64,000 nucleotides of DNA, taken from Acidobacteriota bacterium. Lineage in GTDB: Bacteria; Bacillota; Syntrophomonadia; Syntrophomonadales; DTU052. Positions within the stretch are counted from its first letter, which is position 1. Every line of letters begins with the position of its first letter. A program made the translations under genes and the position numbers. The stretch covers positions 3,905-67,904 of the forward strand of contig JBLNAX010000068.1 in assembly GCA_050259595.1 (NCBI GenBank). The letters are read 5' to 3'. The notes below the pieces were generated by a model. It did no database searches, was not told where the DNA came from, and saw only the letters and a program-made list of their open reading frames with translations. This document shows positions 24,342 to 47,011 of the stretch, piece after piece.

Positions 24342-24416
24342 GCCGATGTGGCTCAGTGGCAGAGCAGCTGATTCGTAATCAGCAGGTCGGCGGTTCAAAT
24401 CCGCCCATCGGCTCCA
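24342..24416 (+). tRNA. tRNA-Thr(CGT)
   Basis: Cloverleaf GCCGATG/CATCGGC acceptor, TGGCTCAGTGGCAGAGCA D-arm, GCTGA-TTCGTAA-TCAGC anticodon arm (anticodon CGT), GGTTCAAATCC T-arm, encoded CCA. Confidence 0.9.
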
Positions 24417-24427
24417 GTAAAATAGGG

Positions 24428-24457
24428 CCTTCCGAGACTTCGGAGGGTTTTTATTTT
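24428..24457 (+). terminator. rho-independent terminator after tRNA-Thr
   Basis: CCTTCCGAG-ACT-TCGGAGGG followed by TTTTTATTTT. Confidence 0.65.
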
Positions 24458-24517
24458 GGGGTTTGTACCCCAACCGTACCCCAACCGGAAATAAAAATTG
24501 CATTTACTGCAATTAAA

Positions 24518-25669
24518 TCATTTTTTGGTGCTTTCATTTTCATCTGGGATCTTGAGAACTGAACTGAGCCTCTCAACAGCTCGTTTTTTAAGCTTCTCTT
24601 TGACATGGCCATATGTATTTGCAGTGGTGCTCAGTGAGGCATGGCCCATTAGTTCTTGTATTACGCGCATATCCTCACCAGCTTCTAGAAGCAAAGAAGC
24701 ATAAGAATGGCGCAGCGAGTGGAATGTAATGTCTTTGTATTCCGGGTTTTCCTTTTCCAGCTTTTGAAGTAGAGATTTGAAATGCTTTGAGAGGTATTGG
24801 GGATCTACCATTCTGCCGTCTGGCCATGCAAAGACGAACCCTTCGTCAATATAACCGGTGCGGCATAGTTCCTTTTCTGCATCCTGACGGTTCTTATGAT
24901 TCTCTAAGATTGCCACAATATCTGAGGTTAGTGGAACAATCCGTTCGCCTTTTTTAGTCTTTGGGAGTTGATAAATAATCTTTGTCTTGCTAGGTGACTC
25001 AGGATCGTCATTAATGACTCTGCTAGCAGCTTCTCTGATTTCAATAATACCTTTATCCAAATTCACAAACTGCCAGCGGAGAGCTGCCAGCTCACCTACA
25101 CGTAGACCCGAACCAAGATCAAATAAGATCGCAGTGTACCATGGATCTTCTTGAATAGACTTAAGTAATTTGAAAGTCTGTTCAGAATCAAGGAAAGCCG
25201 CTTCCTTCTTTACTGGCCTCGGAGGAGTAGTTGCTAAGCAGGGGTTGCGGTATATTCTATCTTCTAAAACAGCCTGTTTAAGGGCTCCACTAAGTAGAAC
25301 ATGAAGGTACTCAATACTCCGAGCGGATAATGGCTGGCCTGTCTTCTTTGTTTTCTGTGTTTTCTTAGTGTTATAAAACCGTTGGATGTCAGAAGGTTGA
25401 AGATCTTTGAGCGGTATCTTATCGAAGTACGGTCTAATATGTATGCGGATTAATTGTTCGTAACTTCTACTGGTAGTAGGCCTAACATTGGTCTTATATG
25501 TTTCAAACCAGTATTGGACCCAAGCTCCAGCTGAAATTTGGCTAAAATCATGCATGACACCTTGATTATGCTGGTGTAACAAAGTCGTCATTTGTTTTTT
25601 CAACTCAGTTTTACTTTTGTTGTAAAGGGATTTGCGTCTTAGGGCGCCCGTTTCAGCATCTCGAAGCAT
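24518..25669 (-). CDS. tyrosine-type site-specific integrase
   Basis: C-terminal catalytic region [11 protein letters not shown] ... [40 protein letters not shown] (R, HxxR, H, Y), with an N-terminal SAM-like domain. It lies adjacent to tRNA-Thr. Confidence 0.9.
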
Positions 25670-26397: not shown

Positions 26398-26565
26398 ATC
26401 TATCATCACCTTTCGGAAGATACAATAACGATTCACTAAATATAAGGTAAATCCTGTAACACTAGTTTAACATCTCAAATTATAACCTTTCGGAAGCAAA
26501 CGTTGAGCTTATCATATTATTGTCTCATGAAGTTTAATGTTTGTGTGAAAATTCAGAAAATAGTA

Positions 26566-27283: not shown

Positions 27284-27934
27284 ATGCCGTGTATTGTTGC
27301 TGATATCCTACTCGACGTTAGTAACTGGGAAGTCGTTTCCCATAAAGAATTACGTGAAAAGCATGGATTGAACCGCCGTACACATTTTTGGGCTGGTCTT
27401 GGAAAAGAGGATAGGTTATACACATTGTATCTACTTCAAGAAACTGCTAGGGCTCAAGAAATCGGCAAGATCAAATATGAGATAAAAAATAACGCGGCTG
27501 CTACTTCACTAAACCGAGCAATTGTTTTTGTGCCGAATCGAAGAACTATGGATATCTTTGGCGTCGAGAGTCTTGGCTTGAAAGAACTTCTCTTACTGCC
27601 AGTGAATGCTGCCGCAATACTGAACACCTATAATGAGCCCCCAGTTCAGAATCAAATAAAGTCGATAATCGGACCCGCAAACCAGTGCAAATATATGTTT
27701 GCCCACTATGAAGACGACGAGTATTACTATACCGATTTGACTTTAAACGATCTGGTAAAAAGATACCACCTTGAGGCTTACTTTGGGTCATTGCATAAGC
27801 CAAAGAAAGTAAAAATAATTTGTCTGCCCGGAAATGTTCCGTTTTATAAAATGGAATACCCCGAAGCAGACATAGTATCAGTGCCGCTTGACTTGTTTTT
27901 GGCACCCCACGAGGCAGGTGATGTTTCAGTTTGA
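27284..27934 (+). CDS. hypothetical protein (216 aa)
   Basis: ATG lies after GGGAGAGGGG. No motif was recognised. Confidence 0.55.
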   Translation: MPCIVADILLDVSNWEVVSHKELREKHGLNRRTHFWAGLGKEDRLYTLYLLQETARAQEIGKIKYEIKNNAAATSLNRAIVFVPNRRTMDIFGVESLGLKELLLLPVNAAAILNTYNEPPVQNQIKSIIGPANQCKYMFAHYEDDEYYYTDLTLNDLVKRYHLEAYFGSLHKPKKVKIICLPGNVPFYKMEYPEADIVSVPLDLFLAPHEAGDVSV

Positions 27935-28726: not shown

Positions 28727-29239
28727 TTACTTTTGCTTGGCCTCGAGTCTTTTGAAAGCCTTAGCAACTATAGAATCCGTAATATATTTTGGATTATAGG
28801 TTTTTATCTTTGATATTACTTCCTTTGCGCTATTTACTGGCAGGCCTCCGGATTCTGCCAAAATGCAAATTAGTTCAATCCCCCAAATTAATGGAATCCC
28901 TTCCTCCTCGCATTTTTGTCGTAAAGGCTTGTCATTTGTAACACAGGTCCACCCATTTTGTTTGGCCATAATTAAGCATATTTTATCCTCAAAAGATAAC
29001 GGACTCCGATCTTCTCCTGCAGCCAACGCGACCTGATCTAATTCTGGTTCAATAATCTTTATACCCCATTCGACGAATCGATCTTCGTTAACATCAGTCA
29101 CCTCATCAACGATGGGCGTAGGTAAATATATCTGACCTACATAGTTACATATCAAACTTAGTAATGAAATGTCTGTAACACAGAAATCGATCAGAACATT
29201 AGCATCGAGTATTAATAGAGAACTCACATTTTTCTGCAC
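28727..29239 (-). CDS. PIN-domain nuclease-like protein (DUF4411-like)
   Basis: Acidic PIN tetrad candidates: LILDANVLID, VDEVTD, SFEDKICL, CVTNDKPL. It lies immediately downstream of the XRE-ImmA/IrrE gene with a 4-nt gap. Confidence 0.65.
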   Translation of the reverse strand: MQKNVSSLLILDANVLIDFCVTDISLLSLICNYVGQIYLPTPIVDEVTDVNEDRFVEWGIKIIEPELDQVALAAGEDRSPLSFEDKICLIMAKQNGWTCVTNDKPLRQKCEEEGIPLIWGIELICILAESGGLPVNSAKEVISKIKTYNPKYITDSIVAKAFKRLEAKQK

Positions 29240-29243
29240 TTGC

Positions 29244-30392
29244 CTATACCCATGAAGAGACTAATTCTCTCATTGACCCAAGATTCATTCCTAAAATCTC
29301 CGCCCCTCGACTCATTGTAATTTTGTCTTTTTCGATTGCTTGCCTTACCAGCCTAGCTAAGCGATCTTCAACAAAGTAGGACGGTAAAAGCGAATTAGGT
29401 TCCTTTGAGCGCAGAGCTTCAGGTGAGTGTTGAAATTTATCTTTAGTTAAACCCTCTGGTTCGTCTTTAAACCCAAGGCTTTTGCCAGTTTTCGCTTTTT
29501 GGGCAGCATAAAACTTGCTCCATACCTCATTCCCATATTGCTCAGAAAGTCTATACAACACAGTCTTATAACTTACCTGGAATATGCCCTTAACTTTGTA
29601 TACTCTATTGACCAAAGGTAAGCCATAAGTCCCTTTCCACTCCGAATTAAAAGATTCTTCGGGCATAAGGAAATATGAAGCGAAGATATCAGCTTCCTTT
29701 TCTTCATCCATATTCTCAGTGCTCTCAACAATATTGTAAGAATCTAAATGTAAGAGTAGATGCCCTAATTCATGAGCAGCACTAAAAATCCATCGTTCAA
29801 CCGAAATACGTTCCCAAACATTTACGATAATTGCTGGCCCCCCCTCAACTTGGGCTACTGACAAGCCAAAGAAATCATCAGAGGCCAATACTAGTGGATA
29901 TACTTTTATCCCAGCAGATTCAAGTAAACCGGCAATATCTCGAATAGGGTCTTTGTATGATAAGCCCAATTTATGCCTAGCTTCTTTAGCGGCAAATCTA
30001 GATCGATCTTCACCGGCGGGGATAGAGGATAACTTATCGGCAAGTTCTTGAAGCCCATAATCCTTACTATCATTCAACAGTTCCTCTAAATAACGGAAAT
30101 GATCTAGCCACCGCGCTACCTGAATTAAGATGCTTTCTCTGCTGTTCATTTTCTTCAAGGCTCTAAATCTTACTTTTTCCATAGTTCGGACAGACACGAA
30201 AAGATCTTGTAGCTTGAATCCAGCTCCTGCTGCAATGTTCTGTAAAGTCGAGACTTTTGGAATTGATTTACCACTTTCAATACTACGGTAAGCTACCCTA
30301 GAAATCCCCGCCATATTGGCTATTTCCTCCTGAGTATACCCCTTTGATTCCCGTAGCCGCCTTAGATTCAGCGCAATAATATTTTGATCCAT
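29244..30392 (-). CDS. XRE-family HTH fused to ImmA/IrrE (M78) zinc metallopeptidase
   Basis: N-terminal HTH (LRRLRESKGYTQEEIANMAGISRVAYRSIESGKSIP). The central region has an intact HELGH motif (FSAAHELGHLLLH) plus a downstream EKEADIFASYFLMP segment. ATG is at 30392; the track starts at GTG 30401. Confidence 0.8.
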   Translation of the reverse strand: MDQNIIALNLRRLRESKGYTQEEIANMAGISRVAYRSIESGKSIPKVSTLQNIAAGAGFKLQDLFVSVRTMEKVRFRALKKMNSRESILIQVARWLDHFRYLEELLNDSKDYGLQELADKLSSIPAGEDRSRFAAKEARHKLGLSYKDPIRDIAGLLESAGIKVYPLVLASDDFFGLSVAQVEGGPAIIVNVWERISVERWIFSAAHELGHLLLHLDSYNIVESTENMDEEKEADIFASYFLMPEESFNSEWKGTYGLPLVNRVYKVKGIFQVSYKTVLYRLSEQYGNEVWSKFYAAQKAKTGKSLGFKDEPEGLTKDKFQHSPEALRSKEPNSLLPSYFVEDRLARLVRQAIEKDKITMSRGAEILGMNLGSMRELVSSWV

Positions 30393-30463
30393 ATTCACCA
30401 ACTCTTTAATGTTTTTATTTTATTATATCATAATTTCAGGATTTGAATACATGATAAGCATAC

Positions 30464-30492
30464 TTGCCACAATAAATATTCTTGTATATAAT
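30464..30492 (+). promoter_or_regulatory. sigma-A type promoter facing the Ubl-E2-E1 operon
   Basis: TTGCCA, a 17-nt spacer, then TATAAT. This would give a 5' leader of about 315 nt before the 30813 start. Confidence 0.45.
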
Positions 30493-30812
30493 GGTAAGTG
30501 AGGGATTCTAAATGCATTGTGAAAGGGGTGATGTGATATGAAAGGAGTAAAAAAGTAAGAAGAACATCCTGCCCGATGCTCTTCTTACGATGTCAATTAT
30601 GCAAATGAAAGTTGACAGAAGGTCCAAGGACCTACTATCTCGCCATGTCCATAGGAATTATCTTTGAGGCTTTCCCTAGACAGGCTTGTTTAGATACTTC
30701 GCTTCATTATAAATAATTCCTTCTGGATTTGTGCCTGGCAAAGAAAATTTTATGTTAATTGGGGATTAGGTTACCGCTATCGAAAAATACGTTATTAGGG
30801 GTGAATAGCTTT

Positions 30813-31109
30813 ATGGAAAAGGTCTTAGTTGAAATCGAAGAATATGTAAAGAATGCTCGGGAAATCCCGAAAGAAGATGTGATATATAAATTTAAAGTTG
30901 GTTCCAAGACATGCGAAAGCGAATTTGCCGTTATCAACGGCCGTGAAATTCTTACCAAGGCAAACCTATTGCCGCCGGAGATGTATCAATTAAATCAACA
31001 TCTACGCGGCGGAAATGTTGTGCCGGTTGAACTGGATCAGCAGGTTGATCTTTCTGAGCATGGAATTGAAAGATTCTCATACCTCCGGAAAGATTCGACA
31101 GAAGGTTAG
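30813..31109 (+). CDS. ubiquitin-like beta-grasp protein (multiubiquitin-family, single unit) ending in Gly
   Basis: ATG lies 8 nt after AGGGGTGA; the track ORF starts at 30759. The pattern YKFKVGSKTCESEFAVINGREILTKANLLPPEMYQL resembles the prokaryotic multi-ubiquitin domain. The C-terminus is ...KDSTEG, then stop. Confidence 0.6.
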   Translation: MEKVLVEIEEYVKNAREIPKEDVIYKFKVGSKTCESEFAVINGREILTKANLLPPEMYQLNQHLRGGNVVPVELDQQVDLSEHGIERFSYLRKDSTEG

Positions 31110-31113
31110 TCTT

Positions 31114-31536
31114 ATGAGAAGGGATTTTGAAATATTCACAGATGATGCTAGTTTCCTTGATGCACGGAAATACATATGGGAAACTATTAAAGACAGTACC
31201 AATAATAATAACTGTTGGGTTTTGATTCACGATTATCCAATCCCAATCGGTTATAATGTGAATTCAGCGACAGCAGCCATTCTTTTATCTCCTGCTAATT
31301 ACTTGCATTCGGGTATTGATATGGTGTACTTCAATCCGCATCTGTCTAGGAGCGACGGCGTAATGATTAAGCAGATAGATGGTAGAATGGTTATCGAAGG
31401 TTCCAGTTATCAGCAATGGTCTCGGCACAGACAAGGTGATCCGTGGACGGTAGGTAATGACTCTCTTATTACTCACCTTTCGCTGGTCGACTACTGGTTA
31501 GCACGAGAATTTCAATCACAGGAACTTCGCTCATGA
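31114..31536 (+). CDS. prokaryotic E2-like (Prok-E2 family) protein
   Basis: ATG lies 5 nt after the upstream stop; the track ORF starts at 31015. The segment WVLIHDYPIPIGYN...ILLSPANYLHSGIDMVYFNPHL...QQWSRH...DSLITHLSLVDYWL matches my memory of the Prok-E2_E family. Confidence 0.55.
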   Translation: MRRDFEIFTDDASFLDARKYIWETIKDSTNNNNCWVLIHDYPIPIGYNVNSATAAILLSPANYLHSGIDMVYFNPHLSRSDGVMIKQIDGRMVIEGSSYQQWSRHRQGDPWTVGNDSLITHLSLVDYWLAREFQSQELRS

Positions 31537-32948
31537 TCCGTTACAAATTACGAATGACGGGCCGCCAATATGCGGCCCTGTCTCAACATTTGCTTGCCAA
31601 TGATGGTTGTGAATCTGTCGCTTTGGCTCTGTGCGGAGTTGGTGAAAGAAACGAAAATGGAATAATTGAACGTGTAGTAATGATTCGCGAAGTTATTCCA
31701 GTGCCGATTGATCAATGCATGGTACGTACCGCCGATTGTGTTAAGTGGTCAACCGAAATATTAAACGGTTTATTATCGAGAATAGACAAAGAAAATGCCA
31801 TCCTCTTAAAACTTCATAGCCATCGTTCAGAAACTGATGCCTTTTCAGAAACTGATGATATTTCTGACAATGAATTGGTTGACTCGGTGTCGGGGTATTT
31901 GCAGAGAGATTTTTGTTGTATAAGTGCCATCATGACAGAGAGTCGCCGCATAAAAGCACGAGTGCTTCAGGTGGATGGTAAGGCAATACCGGTAGAATCC
32001 GTCCTCATCGTCGGTGATGATATTCATTTTTGGCTTTACCAAGACATGAATGGGAATCAGGGTTTGGGCCAATTATCCAAACGAACAACGCAGACATTGG
32101 GTAGACATACGACACAAATCCTTTCTAGGCTAAGAATCGGCATAGTTGGCACTTCTGGAACCGGAAGTCCCACGGTTGAAATGTTAAACCGGTTAGGAGT
32201 AGGATATCTTGTTTTAGTGGATGGAGACATTATTAATCATCTTAATGTCGGGCGAATCTATAACTCAACTGTATGGGATGCAGATGAAGGTAGATACAAA
32301 GTTCACATTCTAAAACAAAAAATGCAACAAAACGGACTTCCCACAATTGTTGAGGCTTTTCCCAAAGACCTTTATCATGCGTCTGTTATCCGGGCCCTAG
32401 CACAATGTGATATTATTTTTGGATGCATGGATTCTGTTGATGGTAGGCATCTATTAAATAGGCTTTGTGTTTATTATTCAATACCATATTTCGATATTGG
32501 CATTGGCCTTGATGCAGATGGGCAAGGAGGGGTAGAACTCGTAAGTGGTACTGTTCACTATATCCAAGCTGACGGCTCATCACTTATGAGTCGGGGAGTA
32601 TACAATCCGGAAATGCTCCTTGCTAGTATTACTCAAAGACAAAACCCCGAGTTTTATGAAGATCAGCGACAACGGGGATATTTACGTGGTTCTAATGAGG
32701 ACCGTCCGGCTGTGATTAGTGTAAATACCATGATGGCAAGTATCGCTGTGAACGATTTTCTATCTAGAATACATCCTATTCGATACAGCGACAACAAGGA
32801 CGTTGCCCAGATTAGTTTAAACTGGAGTGGCATGTATATTCAAACTTTTTCAGCTAATGATTTCTCGACTGATCGATTATTTTTCAGAGACGTTGGTCGA
32901 GGCGATGTGCATCCATTGTTGCTTGAATACAATTTAGAAGGAGATTGA
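31533..32948 (+). CDS. JAB/MPN metalloprotease fused to ThiF/E1-like adenylating enzyme
   Basis: The ATGA start overlaps the E2 stop. N-terminal JAMM motif: E (CESVALALCG) ... HSHRSETDAFSETD (HxHx7SxxD). The C-terminal half has a Rossmann E1 signature RIGIVGTSGTGSPTVEMLNRLGVGYLVLVDGDIINHLNVGRIY and FGCMDSVDGRHLLNRLC. Confidence 0.8.
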   Translation: MIRYKLRMTGRQYAALSQHLLANDGCESVALALCGVGERNENGIIERVVMIREVIPVPIDQCMVRTADCVKWSTEILNGLLSRIDKENAILLKLHSHRSETDAFSETDDISDNELVDSVSGYLQRDFCCISAIMTESRRIKARVLQVDGKAIPVESVLIVGDDIHFWLYQDMNGNQGLGQLSKRTTQTLGRHTTQILSRLRIGIVGTSGTGSPTVEMLNRLGVGYLVLVDGDIINHLNVGRIYNSTVWDADEGRYKVHILKQKMQQNGLPTIVEAFPKDLYHASVIRALAQCDIIFGCMDSVDGRHLLNRLCVYYSIPYFDIGIGLDADGQGGVELVSGTVHYIQADGSSLMSRGVYNPEMLLASITQRQNPEFYEDQRQRGYLRGSNEDRPAVISVNTMMASIAVNDFLSRIHPIRYSDNKDVAQISLNWSGMYIQTFSANDFSTDRLFFRDVGRGDVHPLLLEYNLEGD

Positions 32949-33002
32949 AAATGCTTCAACGACTTCATCAACTGTGGCAAGAAGTACTTGGGCTTTTCTT
33001 CG

Positions 33003-33662
33003 TTAAGTACAGGCGCTTCCGCTTTGTATCGTGCGAGGATATCCCTGATAAGTTAGAAGAGCGTGCGCTTTGACTAACTTATAAAAAGTTGTAGGTTTAA
33101 GATTTAATTCATGCATTGCCAGTCTTGCAGTAATATTGCCTTCTTTCCACTTATAATAGACCTTCTCAAAATCACTTGGAAATTCAGCTTTGGGCCTGCC
33201 GAGATGTTTACCTTGAGCCTTGGCTATAGCAATTCCTTCAGCTTGTCGTTGTTTAATGTTCTCCCTCTCTTGTTGTGCCACATAAGCCAATACTTGAAGG
33301 ATTAAATCACTAATAAACGTTCCTAAAAGGTCTTTATGAAGCGTAGTATCAAGAAGTGACATATCCAATACTCTGATATCAGCTTTGGTATCCTGGGTAA
33401 TCTCCTGCCATTCATTGATTATTTCTCTGTAGTTTCGGCCTAGTCTATCAATAGACTTAATGATTAACAGATCGCCTTCACGCAAAGCATTCTTGAGAAT
33501 TTGGTATTGTGGGCGATTAAAATCTTTGCCGCTTTGCTTATCTAGAAGGATGTACCTTTCATCTACTCCTGCATCTACCATTGCTTGGATTTGCCTAGCC
33601 TCATTCTGGTCTTTATCACTAATCCTGCAGTAGCCGTAAGTTCTATTCTGCATTTCGAACAC
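33003..33662 (-). CDS. serine recombinase (resolvase/invertase family)
   Basis: YGYCRISDKDQNEARQ (catalytic Ser), the DLLIIKSIDRLGRN motif, and a C-terminal HTH. Confidence 0.88.
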   Translation of the reverse strand: MFEMQNRTYGYCRISDKDQNEARQIQAMVDAGVDERYILLDKQSGKDFNRPQYQILKNALREGDLLIIKSIDRLGRNYREIINEWQEITQDTKADIRVLDMSLLDTTLHKDLLGTFISDLILQVLAYVAQQERENIKQRQAEGIAIAKAQGKHLGRPKAEFPSDFEKVYYKWKEGNITARLAMHELNLKPTTFYKLVKAHALLTYQGYPRTIQSGSACT

Positions 33663-33866
33663 CCCCTAAGATGCTATACTCTTATTATATCGATGGTGTT
33701 CGTAAAAGTATATATAATTTACGAATATGTACGCTTATTATTTATGGCCTTTACGGTCGCGAATAAGTGTAATTATAGTGGGCATTTGGGATGTTCGCAA
33801 AGGTGTACCTTTATGGTCGTTGTAAGATCTAGTATGTAAAATGAGGATTTATCAAGATAGGGTTAA

Positions 33867-33920
33867 GGCTACCGAACCGTATTATATCTGGTCCGGATCG
33901 CAAGATATGAACTCGGACAT
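33867..33920. repeat. decayed copy of the tRNA-Arg(TCT)/tRNA-Pro(TGG) junction (direct repeat of 34877-34930)
   Basis: GGCTACCGAACCGTATTATATCTGGTCCGGATCGCAAGATATGAACTCGGAC compared with GGCTACCGACCTGTATTTTATCTGGTCCGGGTGGCAAGATTTGAACTCGCAG. About 44 of 54 positions are identical, at an offset of 1010 bp. Confidence 0.7.
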
Positions 33921-34040: not shown

Positions 34041-34343
34041 CTATTGATGTTGGGGTAAGAAATCAATTCTAACTCTGGCATCAAGAACCTCCGCAATTCG
34101 GGTTAGGGTTTGCAGGGTGATATTTTGATTACCCTTTTCAATTCTTGCGATTGTTGATTGTTTAGTGCCCAGCGCTTTCGCCAATTGTTCTTGTGTCCAT
34201 CCTTTTTCAATGCGTAAAGCTATGATCTGCCGCGTTATTTGATACTCGGGTTCGCTCTCGGCCCATTCTTTAGCGAATTGCGGGTCTTTAATCAAGTTTT
34301 TCTTAATATAGTTTTTCAAATCACTCATTGGTGTTACCTCCAA
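34041..34343 (-). CDS. XRE-family HTH antitoxin (HigA-like)
   Basis: GWTQEQLAKALGTKQSTIARIEKGNQNITLQTLTRIA helix-turn-helix. It lies directly downstream of the toxin gene with an 8-nt gap. Confidence 0.8.
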   Translation of the reverse strand: MEVTPMSDLKNYIKKNLIKDPQFAKEWAESEPEYQITRQIIALRIEKGWTQEQLAKALGTKQSTIARIEKGNQNITLQTLTRIAEVLDARVRIDFLPQHQ

Positions 34344-34351
34344 ATAGAAGC

Positions 34352-34693
34352 CTATGTATTTGATAAATAGGCTTTAAGTCGTTGTTCCGCTAGTTTCAAT
34401 TCAGCGTCAGGAAGCTTACGTGTTTTCTTAATAAATCCACTTAACAGTAACAGTATTTTACCGGCAACAACTGAGAAGAGGATGCGATATTGATTACCCT
34501 GAAACACGGTTCTTAGTTCCCATATATTTCGACCAATGTTGCTAACTAAGGGAAAACCGAGATCAGGACCAAACTCCTCTAACAAAAGAAGATTTCTCAG
34601 TATTTTAGCCCGAGCCTTAGCGTTTTGAGCATCTAAGAACTCACTAACCGGCTCGTTACGGCCTTCTTGGTAAAATGTTAATTCCCATGCCAT
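34352..34693 (-). CDS. type II toxin, RelE/HigB superfamily (phage Gp49-like)
   Basis: WELTFYQEGRNEPVSEFLD...NIWELRTVFQGNQYRILF...LLLLSGFIKKTRKLPDAELKLAEQR is the typical Gp49/HigB-2 pattern. Confidence 0.8.
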   Translation of the reverse strand: MAWELTFYQEGRNEPVSEFLDAQNAKARAKILRNLLLLEEFGPDLGFPLVSNIGRNIWELRTVFQGNQYRILFSVVAGKILLLLSGFIKKTRKLPDAELKLAEQRLKAYLSNT

Positions 34694-34811: not shown

Positions 34812-34888
34812 TGGCAGGCCGGACAGGATTCGAACCTGCATTAGGCAGTTTAGAAGACTGCTGCCTCGATCCATTAGGCTACCGACCT
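34812..34888 (-). tRNA. tRNA-Arg(TCT)
   Basis: Minus-strand cloverleaf with anticodon arm GCAGT-CTTCTAA-ACTGC, T-arm GCAGG-TTCGAAT-CCTGT, and encoded CCA. Confidence 0.8.
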
Positions 34889-34898
34889 GTATTTTATC

Positions 34899-34975
34899 TG
34901 GTCCGGGTGGCAAGATTTGAACTCGCAGTCTCGTGGTCCCAGGCCACGCGGGATACCAAGTTACCCTACACCCGG
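34899..34975 (-). tRNA. tRNA-Pro(TGG), atypical C at position 33
   Basis: Acceptor CGGGTGT.../...CACCCGG-A-CCA. Anticodon arm CGTGG-CCTGGGA-CCACG. The reading is confirmed by the track translation SWSQATR on the plus strand. Confidence 0.75.
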
Positions 34976-34983
34976 AGGAATTA

Positions 34984-35061
34984 TGGTGTCGGAGGCGAGA
35001 GTCGAACTCGCAAAACTGCGGGTTTGAGCCGCATATGTATGCCTGATTCCATCACTCCGAC
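34984..35061 (-). tRNA. tRNA with Leu anticodon CAA but no long variable arm (78 nt)
   Basis: GTCGGAG-TG-ATGGAATCAGGCATACAT-A-TGCGG-CTCAAAC-CCGCA-GTTTT-GCGAG-TTCGACT-CTCGC-CTCCGAC-A-CCA. It has a 3-bp Leu-type D-stem and a 5-nt variable loop. Confidence 0.65.
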
Positions 35062-35062
35062 A

Positions 35063-35147
35063 TGGTAATGGTGGAGAGATTCGAACTCTCATGGCTATGG
35101 CCCCTGGTTTTTAAGACCAGGACGTATACCCGTTCCGTCACACCAGC
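35063..35147 (-). tRNA. tRNA-Leu(TAA)
   Basis: An 85-nt class II tRNA with anticodon arm CTGGT-CTTAAAA-ACCAG and a 13-nt variable arm GGGCCATAGCCAT. There is one 2:71 mismatch in the acceptor stem. Confidence 0.75.
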
Positions 35148-35154
35148 ATAATTA

Positions 35155-35230
35155 TGGAGCCGGTGAGAGGACTTGAACCCCTAATCTACTGATTACAAGT
35201 CAGCCGCTTTTTCCATTGAGCTACACCGGC
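35155..35230 (-). tRNA. tRNA-Thr(TGT)
   Basis: Acceptor GCCGGTG/CACCGGC, anticodon loop CTTGTAA, T-loop TTCAAGT, encoded CCA. Confidence 0.85.
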
Positions 35231-35237
35231 TAAAATA

Positions 35238-35314
35238 TGGTGCGGGAGGGAGGACTTGAACCTCCGATCTACCGGTTCAAAGCCGGTCGCGTTAACCAAT
35301 TACGCTACTCCCGT
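35238..35314 (-). tRNA. tRNA-Gln(TTG)
   Basis: Anticodon arm ACCGG-CTTTGAA-CCGGT and D-arm GCGTAATTGGTTAACGC. The 1:72 pair is weak or mismatched. Confidence 0.8.
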
Positions 35315-35323
35315 ATTTATCAT

Positions 35324-35399
35324 TGGCACGGGGCGAAGGGGTCGAACCTCCAGTCTCCTGGGTCAGAACCAGGCATGTTGCCAATTACACCAGCCCCGT
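35324..35399 (-). tRNA. tRNA-Gln(CTG)
   Basis: Anticodon arm CCTGG-TTCTGAC-CCAGG, an A1:U72 pair, encoded CCA. Confidence 0.8.
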
Positions 35400-35404
35400 A
35401 TTTT

Positions 35405-35480
35405 TGGTGCCCCCAGATGGACTCGAACCATCAACTAACCGGTTATGGGCCGGTAACTCTAACCATTGAGTTATGGGAGC
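35405..35480 (-). tRNA. tRNA(CAT), elongator Met or Ile2 type, atypical C33
   Basis: Acceptor GCTCCCA/TGGGGGC with a G1:C72 pair, so it is not initiator-like. Anticodon arm ACCGG-CCCATAA-CCGGT. The reading is confirmed by the track translation LTGYGPVT. Confidence 0.7.
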
Positions 35481-35484
35481 ATTT

Positions 35485-35562
35485 TGGGGTGACTGACGAG
35501 ACTTGAACTCGTAAAGACCGGGGTCACAGTCCGGCGCGTATACCATTTCCGCCACAGCCACC
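35485..35562 (-). tRNA. tRNA-His(GTG)
   Basis: Anticodon loop CTGTGAC. An encoded extra G(-1) lies opposite C73, the hallmark of bacterial tRNA-His. Confidence 0.88.
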
Positions 35563-35609
35563 GCGTTATTATCTTATCTCAGGGGGAAGATCCTCAAGAG
35601 ATTGTTATC

Positions 35610-35687
35610 TGGCTCCCCGAGCAGGGCTCGATCCTGCGACCCTCCGGTTAACAGCCGGGCGCTACCACCAAACTGAGCTATCGGGGA
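35610..35687 (-). tRNA. tRNA-Asn(GTT)
   Basis: Acceptor TCGGGGA/TCCCCGA, D-arm GCTCAGTTTGGTGGTAGC, anticodon loop CTGTTAA. The T-loop ATCGAGC is atypical. Confidence 0.8.
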
Positions 35688-35691
35688 ATAA

Positions 35692-35769
35692 TGGTGCCTC
35701 CGACAGGGATCGAACCTGTGACCCTTCGATTATCGGTCGAATGCTCTACCAAAACTGAGCTACAGAGGC
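35692..35769 (-). tRNA. tRNA-Ile(GAT), atypical C33
   Basis: Anticodon arm TTCGA-CCGATAA-TCGAA, D-arm GCTCAGTTTTGGTAGAGC, T-loop TTCGATC. Confidence 0.72.
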
Positions 35770-35774
35770 ATTAA

Positions 35775-35850
35775 TGGTGTCCCTGAGAGGACTCGAACCT
35801 CCAACTTACCGGTTAAAAGCCGGTTACTCTGGCCATTGAGTTACAGAGAC
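35775..35850 (-). tRNA. tRNA-Lys(TTT)
   Basis: Anticodon arm ACCGG-CTTTTAA-CCGGT, encoded CCA. Confidence 0.85.
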
Positions 35851-35854
35851 ATAT

Positions 35855-35929
35855 TGGTGCTCCCGGATGGACTTGAACCATCAGCCTCGCGGTTAAGAGC
35901 CGCTTGCTCTGCCATTGAGCCACGGAAGC
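35855..35929 (-). tRNA. tRNA-Lys(CTT)
   Basis: Anticodon loop CTCTTAA, T-arm GATGG-TTCAAGT-CCATC. Confidence 0.82.
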
Positions 35930-35939
35930 AAAACTATCA

Positions 35940-36014
35940 TGGTGCTGCGGGTTGGAATCGAACCAACTACGCCACGGGCTTCAACCGAGCGCTCTACCGG
36001 TGAGCTACCACAGC
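35940..36014 (-). tRNA. tRNA-Phe(GAA)
   Basis: Anticodon loop TTGAAGC with one U:U mismatch in the anticodon stem. D-arm AGCTCACCGGTAGAGC. Confidence 0.78.
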
Positions 36015-36020
36015 ATTATT

Positions 36021-36097
36021 TGGTGGACCTGACAGGACTCGAACCTGCAACCTTCTGCTTGCAAAGCAGTCGTTCTCGCCATTAGAACTACAGGCCC
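36021..36097 (-). tRNA. tRNA-Ala(TGC)
   Basis: Acceptor GGGCCTG with the G3:U70 Ala identity pair. Anticodon loop TTTGCAA. Confidence 0.85.
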
Positions 36098-36100
36098 ACA

Positions 36101-36176
36101 TGGTGCTCCCTGGTGGAATCGAACCACCGGTCTTATGCTTGTAAGGCATCTGCTCTTCTCACTGAGCTAAGGGAGC
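36101..36176 (-). tRNA. tRNA-Val(TAC)
   Basis: Acceptor GCTCCCT/AGGGAGC, anticodon loop CTTACAA, T-arm GGTGG-TTCGATT-CCACC. Confidence 0.85.
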
Positions 36177-36217
36177 CGGATAAATAAGAAGGGGTTGTGA
36201 CTTTAATTCACAACCCC
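36177..36217 (-). terminator. perfect 10-bp hairpin + U-rich tract between the two tRNA blocks
   Basis: GGGGTTGTGA-7 nt-TCACAACCCC. On the minus strand it is followed by TTCTTATTTATCCG, which runs straight into tRNA-Val. Confidence 0.45.
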
Positions 36218-36380
36218 TGGATTGGTCGTATTTTCGGTCACTTTAAGTATTCATGATCGTCTGTTTTGGGCATGTTGAGTTAATACGATAAACGGTTTTA
36301 TCGCTGTATTTCTGAATATTGTGTTCGTAATGCCCAAAGTTTTCACTGATTAATCTCCTATTCTTGTTTAGTATTAAAAC

Positions 36381-36470
36381 TGGCGGAGACGGAAGGACTC
36401 GAACCTTCAAACGCTGTTAACGTCACTGGGTTTCAAAGCCAGGCCCCGCCCCACTGGGGTCAACGTCTCC
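36381..36470 (-). tRNA. tRNA-Ser(TGA)
   Basis: A 90-nt class II tRNA with anticodon loop TTTGAAA, a C:C mismatch closing the stem, a long variable arm and discriminator G. The D-arm is poorly canonical. Confidence 0.65.
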
Positions 36471-36478
36471 TTGATTAA

Positions 36479-36566
36479 TGGAGGAAGAGGAGGGATTCGA
36501 ACCCACGGAACCTCACGGCCCTCCGGTTTTCGAAACCGGCGCATTAATCCTCTCTGCCAATCTTCC
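36479..36566 (-). tRNA. tRNA-Ser(CGA)
   Basis: An 88-nt tRNA with D-arm TGGCAGAGAGGATTAATGC, anticodon arm CCGGT-TTCGAAA-ACCGG and a 16-nt variable arm. There is one T-stem mismatch and one 7:66 mismatch. Confidence 0.72.
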
Positions 36567-36580
36567 TCAATGTTAAGTTC

Positions 36581-36675
36581 TGGCGGAGAGAGTGGGGGTC
36601 GAACCCACGCAGGCTGCTGCTAGCAACCCCTGGTGCCTTTCCAAGACACTCCCTTAGCCTCTTGGGTATCTCTCC
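36581..36675 (-). tRNA. tRNA-Ser(GGA)
   Basis: A 95-nt tRNA with acceptor GGAGAGA/TCTCTCC, anticodon arm GTGTC-TTGGAAA-GGCAC and a very long variable arm. Confidence 0.75.
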
Positions 36676-36682
36676 AAAAACA

Positions 36683-36773
36683 TGGCGGAGGATGTAGGAT
36701 TTGAACCTACGCAGGCGTTACCACCCCTAGCGGTTTAGCAAACCGCCCTCTTCAGCCACTTGAGTAATCCTCC
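36683..36773 (-). tRNA. tRNA-Ser(GCT)
   Basis: A 91-nt tRNA with acceptor GGAGGAT/ATCCTCC, anticodon arm GCGGT-TTGCTAA-ACCGC and a long variable arm. Confidence 0.78.
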
Positions 36774-36780
36774 GTATATT

Positions 36781-36857
36781 TGGTACGGACGAGAGGGGTC
36801 GAACCTCCAAAACTACGGGTCTAAGCCGCATACGTATGCCAGTTCCGTCACGTCCGC
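36781..36857 (-). tRNA. tRNA with Leu anticodon TAG but no long variable arm (77 nt)
   Basis: GCGGACG-TG-ACGGAACTGGCATACGT-A-TGCGG-CTTAGAC-CCGTA-GTTTT-GGAGG-TTCGACC-CCTCT-CGTCCGT-A-CCA. The reading is confirmed by the track translation WYGREGSNLQNYGSKPHTYASSVTSA. Confidence 0.65.
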
Positions 36858-36870
36858 ACGTTTTCAATTT

Positions 36871-36945
36871 TGGTTGCGGGCCCAGGAGTTGAACCAGGTT
36901 AATCCGAGTTATGAGCCCGGCGAAGATGCCGACCTTCCGCCCGCA
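36871..36945 (-). tRNA. initiator-like tRNA-Met(CAT)
   Basis: Anticodon arm CCGGG-CTCATAA-CTCGG with a G29-G31 run. The D-stem has an A11:U24 pair, and the 3' end is ...CCCGCAACCA as in tRNA-fMet. Position 1:72 is a U:A pair, and the T-stem has a U:U mismatch. Confidence 0.7.
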
Positions 36946-36946
36946 A

Positions 36947-37022
36947 TGGCGACCCCGACCGGATTTGAACCGGCGATCTCTGGCGTGACAAGCCAGCATT
37001 CTAGCCCCTGAACTACGGAGTC
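36947..37022 (-). tRNA. tRNA-Asp(GTC)
   Basis: Anticodon arm CTGGC-TTGTCAC-GCCAG, discriminator G, encoded CCA. Confidence 0.85.
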
Positions 37023-37029
37023 ATATTTA

Positions 37030-37116
37030 TGGAGGCGTGGACGGGGTTTGAACCCGCGCGGGCGCTATGCCCATCAGCTTGAAAGGCTGACCTCTGTACC
37101 ATTCGAGTACCACGCC
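37030..37116 (-). tRNA. class II-shaped tRNA (87 nt, long variable arm) carrying Glu anticodon TTC
   Basis: GGCGTGG-TA-CTCGAATGGTACAGAG-G-TCAGC-CTTTCAA-GCTGA-TGGGCATAGCGCCCGC-GCGGG-TTCAAAC-CCCGT-CCACGCC-T-CCA. It has a 3-bp D-stem, a 16-nt variable arm and discriminator U. Confidence 0.6.
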
Positions 37117-37129
37117 ATGCTGTTATATA

Positions 37130-37217
37130 TGGTGCCACCGGAGGGAATCGCACCCACTCGGGTCAATTGACGACGGATTTACAGTCCGCCCCGTCTGCTT
37201 TAACGGTCTACGATGGC
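37130..37217 (-). tRNA. tRNA-Tyr(GTA)
   Basis: An 88-nt class II tRNA with anticodon arm GCGGA-CTGTAAA-TCCGT, a 15-nt variable arm and discriminator A. The T-loop TGCGATT is atypical. Confidence 0.78.
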
Positions 37218-37226
37218 ATATTCATT

Positions 37227-37304: not shown

Positions 37305-37312
37305 ATATATTT

Positions 37313-37386: not shown

Positions 37387-37396
37387 TTAATTATCA

Positions 37397-37475: not shown

Positions 37476-37480
37476 ATTAT

Positions 37481-46975: not shown

Positions 46976-47011
46976 TTAATAAAAAAATGGGGTTGGAGGG
47001 TTTAATGGAGG

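What the first reader, a model, noticed from the sequence alone, without database searches (positions are those of the whole stretch)
30813..32948. Compact three-gene ubiquitin-like conjugation operon (Ubl ending in Gly, E2-like, JAB-E1 fusion) in a defence island
**What the sequence shows**
- Three tightly packed genes, with a 4-nt gap and then an ATGA overlap.
- The first is a 98-aa beta-grasp/multiubiquitin-like protein whose last residue is Gly (...STEG-stop). It would need no processing before adenylation.
- The second is a 140-aa Prok-E2-like protein.
- The third is a 471-aa fusion of a JAMM/MPN domain (E...HSHx7SETD) with a ThiF/E1 Rossmann domain (GTSGTGS...LVDGD).

**Established knowledge**
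- Ubl/E2/E1/JAB operons have been catalogued computationally in bacteria.
- Related four-gene Bil-type systems act against phage.

**What looks unusual**
- Here the deconjugating and activating activities are in one polypeptide.
- The E2-like protein has only one cysteine (Cys34, in NNNNCWVLI), far from the QQWSRH segment where I would expect the active-site region. The chemistry (thioester or something else) is therefore unclear.
- The target is also unclear.
Basis: partly seen in the sequence, partly recalled or inferred. Interest (0 to 1): 0.75.

Follow-up and report, generated by a model that had tools for sequence, protein, structure and literature searches.

The report
Type I Bub ubiquitin-like operon, bubE truncated
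The three genes are real and form a bacterial ubiquitin-like conjugation operon, but it belongs to the already described "Bub" family, whose known chemistry (tyrosine and serine esters instead of cysteine thioesters) explains the puzzling features; what is particular to this copy is that its fourth gene, a protease that removes the tag, has been cut off.

Summary
Ubl (30813-31109, ends STEG-stop), E2 (31114-31536) and JAB-E1 (31533-32948) are present, with a 4-nt gap and then an ATGA overlap.

They are not a new kind of system. JAB-E1 matches the solved Citrobacter BubCD (E=1.8e-59) and the E2 matches BubB (E=1.2e-21). This is a Type I Bub ("6E.1"/DUF6527) operon (Ye et al., bioRxiv 10.1101/2024.11.21.623953).

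The "unusual" features are family hallmarks:
- The peptidase-E1 fusion is standard.
- The E2 nucleophile is Ser103 in WSRH, with His105 and Asp69, all invariant.
- Cys34 is not conserved.
- The E1 has an invariant crossover-loop Tyr383 and no loop cysteine.

Separate Ubl and E2 genes are common (61 of 86 classified relatives) and are already listed in that paper's Table S1.

Particular to this copy:
- bubE (DUF6527 protease) is truncated to 40 codons (32951-33073), next to an invertase gene.
- The operon shares a divergent HTH-M78 (RmrA/CapH-CapP-like) plus PIN-like gene pair with its four closest relatives.
- It lies in a low-GC island beside tRNA-Thr and an integrase.

Bub's biological role is still unproven. 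Verdict: new member of a known kind; modest interest.

The parts
30813..31109 (+). bubA: 98-aa single beta-grasp ubiquitin-like protein that ends exactly at Gly98 followed by a stop codon
   Evidence: Pfam Multi_ubiq 29 bits, E=1.3e-6. PDB sequence hits to bacterial multi-ubiquitin proteins, E=1.5e-5, and an end-to-end alignment to Citrobacter BubA 155-229. The AF2 model (pLDDT 66) gives its best target-normalised Foldseek match to BubA 9ea8_B, TMt 0.76, rmsd 2.0 A. The family alignment has an invariant D94, T96, E97, G98 C-terminus. dN/dS is 0.10 against L087.
31114..31536 (+). bubB: 140-aa cysteine-independent E2 (Prok-E2_E). Predicted catalytic residues are Ser103 (31420-31422), His105 (31426-31428) and Asp69 (31318-31320).
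   Evidence: Pfam Prok-E2_E 97 bits. Citrobacter BubB 9eae_C at E=1.2e-21, with WSRH aligned to S333-x-H335 and D69 aligned to D299. D69, W102, S103, R104 and H105 are invariant in 11 homologues, while Cys34 is present in only 2. dN/dS is 0.19.
31533..32948 (+). bubCD: 471-aa fusion of a JAB/JAMM peptidase (about residues 1-165; E27, H95, H97, S105, D108) with an E1 adenylation domain (about residues 190-471; G206xxGxG, D230, R241, D300). The crossover-loop Tyr383 is at 32679-32681.
   Evidence: Citrobacter BubCD 9ea4 at E=1.8e-59 over residues 6-434. Y383 aligns to the catalytic Y370, R241 to R227, and E27/H95/H97/D108 to E28/H91/H93/D104. There is no Cys in residues 335-400. Y383, R241 and the glycine motif are invariant in 80 of 80 relatives. 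dN/dS is 0.16.
32951..33073 (+). [quoted passage not shown] The catalytic domain is missing.
   Evidence: It scores 12.2 bits against a full-length BubE profile; shuffles give -1.8 +/- 2.7 and 0 of 500 reach the observed score. In a blind six-frame scan of all 64 kb it is the top hit (E=0.0077). It aligns to profile positions 26-70 and ends at the stop codon, and no DUF6527 domain occurs anywhere in the window. The position matches bubE in L001 and in the 80 other loci that carry it. BLASTP against a single BubE found nothing.
29244..30401 (-). Divergently transcribed HTH_3 + Peptidase_M78 fusion protein (385 aa). It is RmrA-like / CapH-CapP-like and is the candidate regulator and/or antitoxin.
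   Evidence: Pfam HTH_3 and Peptidase_M78. PADLOC RmrA 1.7e-33, capP 1.1e-16 (residues 162-286), capH 4.7e-10 (residues 3-92). PHROG transcriptional regulator 3.4e-40. It holds the same position in L001, L007, L008 and L009.
28727..29239 (-). PIN-like (DUF3368-type) 170-aa protein encoded immediately downstream of the HTH-M78 gene. It is a candidate toxin or effector.
   Evidence: Only weak Pfam hits: PIN_9 E=0.0025 and PIN E=0.12. The L001 orthologue carries a precomputed DUF3368 hit. Orthologues at 1e-53 to 2e-65 occur in the same position in L001, L007, L008 and L009 only.
30402..30812 (.). Shared divergent control region. It has a near-consensus -35/-10 pair at 30464-30492 (+) and a 14-bp-arm inverted repeat at 30555-30588.
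   Evidence: The promoter-like site matches 11 of 12 positions, but the number of such sites in the region is not above chance. The inverted repeat is reported. Both blocks are conserved in the close relative L089. Their function is inferred only.
33003..33662 (-). DNA-invertase-type serine recombinase gene abutting the bubE truncation. The tail of its ORF runs antisense into the bubE remnant.
   Evidence: Pfam Resolvase 2.7e-26. phrog_125 DNA invertase 6.4e-54.
24342..25669 (.). Left edge of the island: tRNA-Thr (24342-24416, +) and a tyrosine integrase (24518-25669, -).
   Evidence: ARAGORN and Rfam. Pfam Phage_integrase 7.7e-27. GC is about 40% across 24-32 kb against 44-51% in the flanks. 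No att repeat was found.
34041..34693 (-). HigB/HigA-like toxin-antitoxin pair (Gp49 family plus HTH_3) at the right side of the island.
   Evidence: Pfam Gp49 4.5e-24 and HTH_3 1.5e-16.

Best explanation
This is a Type I Bub (bacterial ubiquitination-like, formerly 6E.1/DUF6527) operon of the sub-type that has separate bubA and bubB genes. It is carried on a tRNA-Thr-associated integrative island.

Mechanism, by homology to the biochemically and structurally characterised Citrobacter system:
1. The E1 domain of BubCD adenylates the free C-terminal Gly98 of BubA, using R241, D230 and the glycine-rich ATP site.
2. Tyr383 on the cysteine-free crossover loop attacks the adenylate to form a BubA~Tyr oxyester.
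3. BubA passes to Ser103 of BubB, activated by His105 and Asp69, as a BubA~Ser oxyester.
4. BubA is then conjugated to lysines of still unknown targets.

Because BubA already ends in Gly-stop, the JAB domain is not needed for maturation. It keeps an intact JAMM site, so it probably has a second role, in trimming or deconjugation (inferred).

The family's dedicated deconjugase and brake, BubE, has been lost here: only its first 40 codons remain, next to an invertase gene. This copy should still conjugate but lacks that brake, or it may be on its way to decay.

Expression is probably controlled from the shared divergent promoter region by the HTH-M78 protein, in a CapH/CapP- or ImmR/ImmA-like way (inferred).

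What is shown here is homology, conservation of the catalytic residues, gene order and the truncation. The chemistry, the regulation and any anti-phage role are inferred.
For: Homology to solved structures:
- BubCD at E=1.8e-59 and BubB at E=1.2e-21, with residue-level correspondence of every catalytic position.
- The mechanism and mutant data for those residues are in Ye et al..

Conservation:
- E1 Tyr383, R241 and the ATP motif are invariant in 80 of 80 relatives, and there is no Cys in the loop.
- E2 D69, S103 and H105 are invariant, and Cys34 is not conserved.
- The Ubl beta-grasp is supported and the TEG C-terminus is invariant.

Architecture:
- 469 relatives were detected.
- Among the 86 of the 87 analysed loci that could be classified, 61 are split and 25 are fused.
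- 45 of the 61 split Ubls end at Gly-stop.
- Split operons are already listed as Type I Bub in Table S1, including Alicyclobacillus ferrooxydans, which is L007.
- L001 shows the same six-gene layout with an intact BubE.

Other points:
- The bubE remnant is supported statistically.
- dN/dS of 0.10-0.19 against L087 shows that the three genes have been under purifying selection.
- In Citrobacter, BubA + BubB + BubCD without BubE conjugate robustly and BubE removes the conjugates.
- The regulator matches RmrA, capH and capP. About 31% of Bub operons carry CapH+CapP.
- The authors note that the Bub operons they studied are also in mobile elements at tRNA genes.
Against: - No biochemistry was done on these proteins, so the oxyester relay is transferred by homology: about 40% identity for the E2, and roughly 35-40% for the JAB-E1 by eye from the printed alignment.
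- 'All Bub operons encode BubE', and here BubE is truncated. The locus may be non-functional, and dN/dS cannot date the truncation.
- Prok-JAB scores below the Pfam cutoff.
- The Ubl model is only moderate (pLDDT 66) and its Foldseek E-values are weak, 0.02-0.25.
- No Bub operon has yet been shown to protect against phage.
- The count of promoter-like sites is not above chance.
- The host organism was not identified.
Confidence: 0.85

Rival explanations
1. Inactive relic. The same Type I Bub operon, but the loss of bubE marks a locus that no longer functions and is decaying inside a rearranged mobile island.
For: BubE is present in 80 of the 82 loci that have enough downstream sequence. The only other exception, L069, also has a broken E1. 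Other degenerate copies exist: L028 and L060 have E1 split into two ORFs. An invertase gene abuts the break, and a partial tRNA duplication nearby points to rearrangements.
Against: The three remaining genes are full length, keep every catalytic residue and show dN/dS of 0.10-0.19. In Citrobacter these three proteins are sufficient for conjugation without BubE.
Confidence: 0.3
2. Self-sufficient minimal Bub. In operons whose Ubl ends in Gly-stop, the JAB domain acts as the isopeptidase or brake, so BubE is dispensable and the three genes form a complete, regulated system.
For: 41 of 43 JAB-E1 proteins from Gly-stop operons keep the full E/H/H/S/D JAMM motif although no pre-protein cleavage is needed. 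JAB peptidases in CBASS and Bil systems do cleave conjugates.
Against: Those same Gly-stop operons almost always also keep BubE, so BubE is not redundant there. In Citrobacter, wild-type JAB did not prevent conjugate accumulation, and the authors propose that it acts mainly on the pre-protein.
Confidence: 0.15
3. Composite six-gene cassette. The HTH-M78 + PIN-like pair is a Rosmer-like toxin-antitoxin module that works together with Bub (for example, conjugation controls the toxin or antitoxin, or the reverse), rather than being only a transcriptional regulator or an unrelated neighbour.
For: The pair has the same divergent orientation in the window, L001, two Alicyclobacillus species and Bacillus methanolicus. 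It matches RmrA at 1.7e-33. ImmA-protease antitoxins with an N-terminal HTH are reported to pair with PIN-like toxins.
Against: The association is limited to one sub-clade, 5 of 87 loci, and could be simple co-inheritance. Other Bub loci use separate CapH/CapP, CapW or CapK/CapS regulators. The PIN assignment is weak, and no RmrT model matched.
Confidence: 0.2
4. Bil-like thioester cascade using Cys34 of the E2.
For: Cys34 is the only cysteine in the E2.
Against: Cys34 is absent from 9 of 11 homologues. It lies outside the segment that aligns to the BubB active site. The E1 has no crossover-loop cysteine and no CYS domain. PADLOC gave no hit for the Ubl or the E2, and the JAB-E1 matched only the E1-E2 fusion models through its adenylation core.
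Confidence: 0.02
5. Sulfur-carrier system: ThiS/MoaD plus ThiF/MoeB.
For: NCBIfam and Pfam give ThiF/MoeB-type hits for the adenylation core. Plasmid annotations of homologues read 'ThiF family adenylyltransferase'.
Against: All NCBIfam scores are far below the cutoffs (63 against 275 for ThiF). BubCD is the best PDB match by about 50 orders of magnitude. An E2 and a JAMM domain are present, and the neighbourhood has no thiamine or molybdopterin genes.
Confidence: 0.01

Closest known systems
Type I Bub (bacterial ubiquitination-like; '6E.1'/DUF6527) operons. Citrobacter sp. RHBSTW-00271 BubAB/BubCD/BubE; PDB 9ea4, 9ea8, 9eae, 9eav; Ye, Gong, Chambers & Corbett, bioRxiv 10.1101/2024.11.21.623953.
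   Same: JAB-E1 fusion with a cysteine-free crossover loop and an invariant Tyr. E2 with a Ser-x-His + Asp active site. Multi_ubiq-type beta-grasp Ubl with a C-terminal Gly. Located in a mobile element next to a tRNA gene. Associated with an HTH/M78-type regulator.
   Different: The Ubl and E2 are separate genes and the Ubl ends at Gly-stop; this variant is already listed in the paper's Table S1, although its text describes the fusion. The Ubl has one beta-grasp domain, against three in Citrobacter. bubE is truncated to 40 codons. The regulator is a single HTH-M78 polypeptide followed by a PIN-like gene.
Metagenomic locus L001 (JGI 3300047584), and the Alicyclobacillus ferrooxydans, A. tolerans and Bacillus methanolicus PB1 loci (L007-L009).
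   Same: Identical six-gene layout: PIN-like and HTH-M78 genes transcribed divergently from bubA, bubB and bubCD. These loci hold the closest E2 (49-57% identity) and E1 (50-53%) sequences.
   Different: They keep an intact BubE of 115-120 aa, and their Ubls carry a 2-residue tail after the Gly (GSL, GEQ, GGV).
Type II Bub (6E.2): BubA, BubBD (E2-E1 fusion), BubE.
   Same: Oxyester chemistry with a crossover-loop Tyr and an E2 Ser. Same Ubl family.
   Different: Type II fuses the E2 to the E1, usually lacks a JAB domain, and its E2 active site is Ser + Lys + His.
Bil (bacterial ISG15-like) systems, BilABCD.
   Same: Ubl + E2 + JAB + E1 gene content. Candidate or proven anti-phage protein conjugation.
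   Different: Bil uses Cys thioesters, an E1 with IAD-AAD-CYS domains and a separate JAB gene. Bil has proven phage-tail conjugation, while Bub has no demonstrated defence phenotype.
RosmerTA, and the CapH+CapP and ImmR/ImmA regulatory modules.
   Same: The neighbouring 385-aa protein combines an XRE-type HTH with an M78/ImmA-type metallopeptidase and matches the RmrA, capH and capP models.
   Different: CapH and CapP are two proteins, whereas here they are fused. The partner is a PIN-like protein that matches no RmrT model. No functional test has been done.

Membership tests
Type I Bub (6E.1) | BubCD: an N-terminal JAB/JAMM peptidase fused to a C-terminal E1 adenylation domain | tested here: met
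   Full-length alignment to Citrobacter BubCD at E=1.8e-59. E27, H95, H97, S105 and D108, and the G-x-x-G-x-G, D230, R241 and D300 residues, are present and conserved.
Type I Bub (6E.1) | E1 crossover loop without cysteine and with an invariant catalytic tyrosine (Y370 in Citrobacter) | tested here: met
   Y383 aligns to Y370. It is invariant in 80 of 80 relatives. No Cys occurs in residues 335-400.
Type I Bub (6E.1) | E2 (BubB, Prok-E2_E) with an invariant Ser-x-His plus Asp in place of a catalytic Cys | tested here: met
   S103, H105 and D69 align to S333, H335 and D299 and are invariant in 11 homologues. Prok-E2_E scores 97 bits.
Type I Bub (6E.1) | Beta-grasp Ubl (BubA) exposing a conserved C-terminal glycine | tested here: met
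   Multi_ubiq above the Pfam cutoff. Structural match to BubA 9ea8_B. Invariant TEG C-terminus, which is directly followed by a stop codon here.
Type I Bub (6E.1) | BubA fused to BubB as a BubAB pre-protein (as described in the paper's text) | tested here: not met
   The genes are separate and in different reading frames. This is not a true defining feature: Table S1 of the same paper lists about 31 Type I operons with separate Ubl and E2 genes, and 61 of the 86 loci classified here are split.
Type I Bub (6E.1) | A bubE gene encoding a DUF6527/PF20137 Ser-His protease ('all Bub operons encode BubE') | tested here: not met
   Only the first 40 codons remain, at 32951-33073, and no DUF6527 domain occurs anywhere in the 64-kb window. 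This is read as secondary loss, because the remnant is in the right place and relatives keep the gene.
Type I Bub (6E.1) | Conjugation through Ubl~Tyr and Ubl~Ser oxyester intermediates | not testable with these tools
   Inferred from conserved residues only. It needs biochemistry.
Bil (BilABCD) | E2 with a catalytic Cys; E1 with IAD-AAD-CYS domains; a stand-alone JAB | tested here: not met
   No conserved Cys in the E2. The E1 has a single adenylation domain fused to a JAB, and its best match is BubCD. PADLOC gave no hit for the Ubl or E2, and only E1-E2 fusion models for the adenylation core of the JAB-E1.
Type II CBASS Cap2/Cap3 | E2-E1 fusion (Cap2), separate JAB (Cap3), adjacent CD-NTase and effector | tested here: not met
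   PADLOC E1-E2 models match only the adenylation core, residues about 190-315. The E2 is a separate gene and the JAB is fused to the E1. No CD-NTase was found among the neighbours scanned.
ThiF/MoeB sulfur-carrier activation | Equivalog-level match to ThiF or MoeB; a ThiS/MoaD partner; a cofactor-biosynthesis context | tested here: not met
   NCBIfam scores are 63 against a cutoff of 275 for ThiF and 44 against 266 for MoeB. The partner is a Multi_ubiq protein. The context is a mobile island.
RosmerTA (for the neighbouring gene pair) | An RmrA antitoxin (HTH + M78 peptidase) paired with an RmrT toxin, giving a toxicity/neutralisation phenotype | tested here: inconclusive
   RmrA models match at 1.7e-33, but the adjacent PIN-like protein matches no PADLOC model. 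A pairing of ImmA-type antitoxins with PIN-like domains is reported.

The most novel reading that the evidence does not exclude
In the large class of Bub operons whose Ubl is made ready to use (Gly-stop), the JAMM domain is still conserved (41 of 43). It would then have a job other than pre-protein cleavage, such as isopeptidase proofreading or recycling of BubA. On that reading, this locus, a natural bubE knock-out with intact and selected bubA, bubB and bubCD, would be a working 'brake-less' or JAB-braked minimal Bub system. It might be coupled to the conserved HTH-M78/PIN-like module as a six-gene stress or defence cassette.
Probability: 0.15. Interest if true: 0.5.

Novelty: new member of a known kind. 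Interest (0 to 1): 0.3.

Why it matters
The main result is a correction. The finding looked like an unexplained ubiquitin-like system with unclear chemistry.

Three smaller points may interest people working on Bub:
1. Split, Gly-terminated BubA is the majority form among the relatives sampled here, and the JAMM site is still conserved in those operons. That argues against the JAB domain serving only to cleave a BubAB pre-protein.
2. This copy is a natural bubE truncation, which could serve as a comparison for the proposed negative-regulator role of BubE.
3. A sub-clade carries a conserved divergent HTH-M78 + PIN-like pair that the published catalogue left unannotated (the CapH/CapP columns are blank for Alicyclobacillus ferrooxydans).

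The biological role of Bub remains the real open question, and this locus does not resolve it.

Tried and rejected
- BLASTP of the 40-aa ORF against the L001 BubE found no alignment, and tblastn with two BubE proteins found nothing in the window. The Pfam DUF6527 model cannot see the remnant, because it covers only the C-terminal domain (residues 52-114 of the L001 BubE). The remnant was established only with a full-length profile built from 80 BubE ORFs, with shuffle controls.
A 2-sequence alignment gave only a moderate model.
- A search for an att repeat of the tRNA-Thr 3' end (exact matches of 14 nt or more) found nothing, so the right-hand boundary of the island is undefined.
- No inverted repeats that could define an invertible segment around the invertase gene were found.
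- The metagenome scan for close relatives of the JAB-E1, meant to fix the breakpoint at nucleotide level, found none.
- A megablast of the island against plasmids gave only an 82-nt match under the tRNA-Thr gene, so the host was not identified.
- The promoter and terminator scans were at chance level.
- Rejected hypotheses: Cys34 thioester chemistry, Bil membership, CBASS Cap2/Cap3, and ThiF/MoeB sulfur transfer (see the rival explanations and the membership tests).


Full report
**1. Observation.**
- The Ubl runs from ATG 30813 to TAG 31107-31109, is 98 aa long and ends ...STEG.
- After a 4-nt gap, the E2 runs from ATG 31114 to TGA 31534-31536 and is 140 aa long.
- Through an ATGA overlap, the JAB-E1 runs from ATG 31533 to 32948 and is 471 aa long.
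- All quoted motifs are present: a single Cys34 and WSRH at 102-105 in the E2; E27, H95-S-H97, S105 and D108, plus GTSGTGS at 206-212 and VDGD at 229-232, in the third protein.
- Pfam gives Multi_ubiq (29 bits, cutoff 24.5), Prok-E2_E (97 bits) and ThiF (86 bits). Prok-JAB scores 20.3 bits, below its cutoff of 25.

**2. What it is.** Sequence searches against solved structures settle the identity.
- The 471-aa protein aligns over residues 6-434 to Citrobacter BubCD (PDB 9ea4, E=1.8e-59). ThiF follows at 1.9e-8 and MoeB at 9.5e-6.
- The E2 aligns end to end with Citrobacter BubB (9eae_C, E=1.2e-21).
- The Ubl matches bacterial multi-ubiquitin proteins (E=1.5e-5) and aligns end to end, though weakly, with BubA residues 155-229.
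- An AF2 model of the Ubl is only moderate (pLDDT 66) because just two sequences could be supplied. It has a beta-grasp strand and helix order. Its best target-normalised Foldseek match is BubA 9ea8_B (TMt 0.76, rmsd 2.0 A), alongside other bacterial multi-ubiquitin structures.
- These proteins define the Bub (bacterial ubiquitination-like) pathway, formerly called '6E' or 'DUF6527', described by Ye, Gong, Chambers and Corbett (bioRxiv 10.1101/2024.11.21.623953).

**3. The 'unusual' features are family hallmarks.** According to that paper, Type I Bub has these properties:
- It encodes a JAB-E1 fusion (BubCD) with no cysteine in its crossover loop. An invariant tyrosine (Y370) is required for conjugation.
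- Its E2 (BubB) has an invariant Ser-x-His (S333, H335) plus Asp (D299) at the position of the usual catalytic cysteine.
- The Y370F and S333A/H335A mutants abolish conjugation.

In the window the equivalent residues are:
- Tyr383 in QRGYLRG.
- Asp69.
- The adenylation Arg241, equivalent to R227.
- JAMM residues E27, H95, H97 and D108, equivalent to E28, H91, H93 and D104.

Conservation agrees with this assignment. In 11 stand-alone E2 homologues, D69, W102, S103, R104 and H105 are invariant, while Cys34 occurs only in the window protein and its 81%-identical relative. In 80 full-length JAB-E1 relatives, Tyr383, R241, D230, D300 and the glycine motif are invariant. Residues 335-400 of the window protein contain no Cys. 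The chemistry is therefore not obscure: it is the Tyr-to-Ser oxyester relay. That conclusion is by homology and was not tested on these proteins.

**4. Separate Ubl and E2 genes.** The paper's text says that Type I operons encode a BubAB fusion which the JAB domain cleaves after the conserved Gly. Here the two genes are separate and in different reading frames. I tested whether this is new.
- A scan of species-representative genomes found 469 relatives, and 80 loci were retrieved.
- Of 87 loci analysed in all, 86 could be classified. Of those, 61 are split and 25 are fused.
- Of the 61 split Ubls, 45 end exactly at ...TEG-stop and 16 carry tails of 2-10 residues.
- The paper's own Table S1 already lists about 31 Type I operons with separate Ubl and E2 gene IDs ('DUB+E1 fusion' only). 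They include Alicyclobacillus ferrooxydans (my L007) and Bosea vaviloviae (L015).
- The split form is therefore catalogued and common, not new. The close relative L087 (81-89% identity) also has STEG-stop.
- One by-product is worth noting. In Gly-stop operons, 41 of 43 JAB-E1 proteins keep the full JAMM motif, and so do 15 of 15 in the tailed class and 21 of 21 in the fused class. [quoted passage not shown]

**5. The missing fourth gene.** 'All Bub operons encode BubE', a DUF6527 Ser-His protease that removes BubA conjugates.
- The closest full locus, L001, has BubE (117 aa) directly after bubCD.
- Of 82 loci with enough downstream sequence, 80 have a BubE ORF. The exceptions are the window and L069, whose E1 is also broken.
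- In the window, a 40-codon ORF starts 2 nt after bubCD (32951-33073; MLQRLHQLWQEVLGLFFVKYRRFRFVSCEDIPDKLEERAL-stop).
- BLASTP and the Pfam domain model do not detect it, because the Pfam model covers only the C-terminal catalytic domain.
- A full-length profile built from 80 BubE ORFs scores it at 12.2 bits. Shuffles give -1.8 +/- 2.7, and 0 of 500 reach the observed score.
- In a blind six-frame scan of the whole window it is the single best hit (E=0.0077). It aligns to the N-terminal extension of the profile (positions 26-70; '...veelPeklkkktl') and stops exactly where the DUF6527 domain should begin. That domain is nowhere else in the 64 kb.
- The break abuts the 3' end of a DNA-invertase-type serine recombinase gene on the opposite strand (33003-33662). 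The tail of that ORF reads antisense through the remnant.
- The operon is therefore a four-gene Bub operon that has lost its deconjugase.
- The three remaining genes show dN/dS of 0.10, 0.19 and 0.16 against L087 at dS of about 0.6. They were under selection for most of that divergence, but this cannot date the truncation.
- In Citrobacter, BubA + BubB + BubCD conjugate robustly without BubE, and BubE erases the conjugates. The prediction is a conjugation-competent system without that brake, or an early-stage relic.

**6. Neighbourhood.**
- Divergently transcribed from bubA is a 385-aa HTH_3 + Peptidase_M78 protein (29244-30401, minus strand). It matches PADLOC RmrA (1.7e-33), capP (1.1e-16) and capH (4.7e-10).
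- It is followed after 4 nt by a 170-aa PIN-like protein (28727-29239) with only weak PIN hits. The L001 orthologue is flagged DUF3368.
- This pair occupies the same position only in the four loci with the closest E2 and E1 sequences: L001, two Alicyclobacillus species and Bacillus methanolicus. Together with the Bub genes it forms a conserved six-gene cassette.
- ImmA/M78 antitoxins with an N-terminal HTH (RmrA) are also reported to pair with PIN-like toxins.
- I cannot tell whether the pair is a regulator, a Rosmer-like toxin-antitoxin module, or both.
- The shared 411-bp control region has a near-consensus promoter-like site (30464-30492) and a 14-bp-arm inverted repeat (30555-30588). Both are conserved in the relative L089. 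This is suggestive only.
- The whole set lies in a stretch of about 10 kb with lower GC, about 40% across 24-32 kb against 44-51% in the flanks.
- That stretch runs from tRNA-Thr (24342-24416) and a tyrosine integrase (24518-25669) to a HigBA-like pair (34041-34693) and a 29-gene tRNA array.
- 'Defence island' is thus partly apt. It is a mobile island with toxin-antitoxin and Rosmer-like content, as the authors also note for the two Bub operons they studied. No classical defence system was detected by PADLOC.

**7. Comparison and novelty.**
- Membership in Type I Bub is met on four residue-level criteria.
- It fails on the BubAB fusion, which the family's own catalogue shows is not truly defining.
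- It fails on BubE, which here is a secondary loss with a visible remnant.
- Bil, CBASS Cap2/Cap3 and ThiF/MoeB membership are each excluded by tested features.
[quoted passage not shown] The target and the biological role remain unknown for the whole family, not for this locus in particular.

**8. Verdict.** The feature is real and correctly delineated, and its domains were correctly guessed. Its apparent strangeness is explained by existing literature. It is a new member of a known kind. Modest added value comes from the natural bubE truncation, the JAMM conservation in Gly-stop operons and the conserved HTH-M78/PIN-like partner. Interest is 0.3.

Noticed in passing
window 34812-37571 (- strand): A compact array of 29 tRNA genes in about 2.8 kb that covers all 20 amino acids (ARAGORN; 25 of the 29 also reach the Rfam gathering score). 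It lies immediately beside the island. Just downstream are an Imm26-family gene (38966-39394), an RtcB RNA ligase (40284-41531) and an HTH-WYL regulator (42096-43058). This reads like a tRNA supply and repair module next to PIN-like and HigB-like toxins.
   Followed up: partly
window 33866-33915 and 34876-34925: A 50-nt direct repeat (88% identical). The second copy spans the 5' end of tRNA-Arg and the 3' end of tRNA-Pro. The two copies bracket the HigBA-like pair plus tRNA-Arg, which suggests an insertion or duplication at the end of the tRNA array.
   Followed up: no
window 33003-33662 (- strand): A DNA-invertase-type serine recombinase (phrog_125, E=6e-54). Its ORF has lost its natural stop and reads 19 codons antisense into the bubE remnant. 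No flanking inverted repeats were found, so what it recombines is unknown.
   Followed up: partly
window 28727-30401 (- strand); also L001 3637-5305, L007 3524-5342, L008 1907-3596, L009 3675-5412: A conserved HTH-M78 (RmrA-like) + PIN-like gene pair lies next to the Bub operon in five loci from different hosts. The CapH/CapP columns are blank for Alicyclobacillus ferrooxydans in the published Bub catalogue.
   Followed up: partly
window 31826-31861: An 18-nt imperfect tandem duplication inside the JAMM motif region, encoding SETDAF/SETDDI. The HSH-x7-S..D spacing is the same as in Citrobacter BubCD, so it does not disrupt the motif.
   Followed up: no
window 44423-61924 (+ strand): An 850-aa protein with RHS-repeat, Laminin_G_3 and Big_2 domains is followed by a single 4970-aa ORF (47012-61924). 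The large ORF was not characterised.
   Followed up: no
L069 3952-4955; L028 6393-7791; L060 6380-7787: Other Bub loci show signs of decay. In L069 the E1 is cut to 80 aa and BubE is absent. In L028 and L060 the E1 is split into two overlapping ORFs. Occasional degradation of Bub operons is therefore not unique to the window.
   Followed up: partly
Census loci L007-L086; JAB-E1 alignment: The only two JAB-E1 proteins with a degenerate JAMM motif (QCHTD and KF-SA in place of EHHSD) both belong to operons whose Ubl ends at Gly-stop. This fits a relaxed need for processing in some of those operons, but two cases are too few for statistics.
   Followed up: no
window 27284-27934 (+), 25775-26086 (+), 25993-26436 (-): These island ORFs have no hit in the libraries each was scanned against (216 aa: Pfam, PADLOC and PHROGs; 147 aa: Pfam and PHROGs; 103 aa: PHROGs only).
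   Followed up: partly
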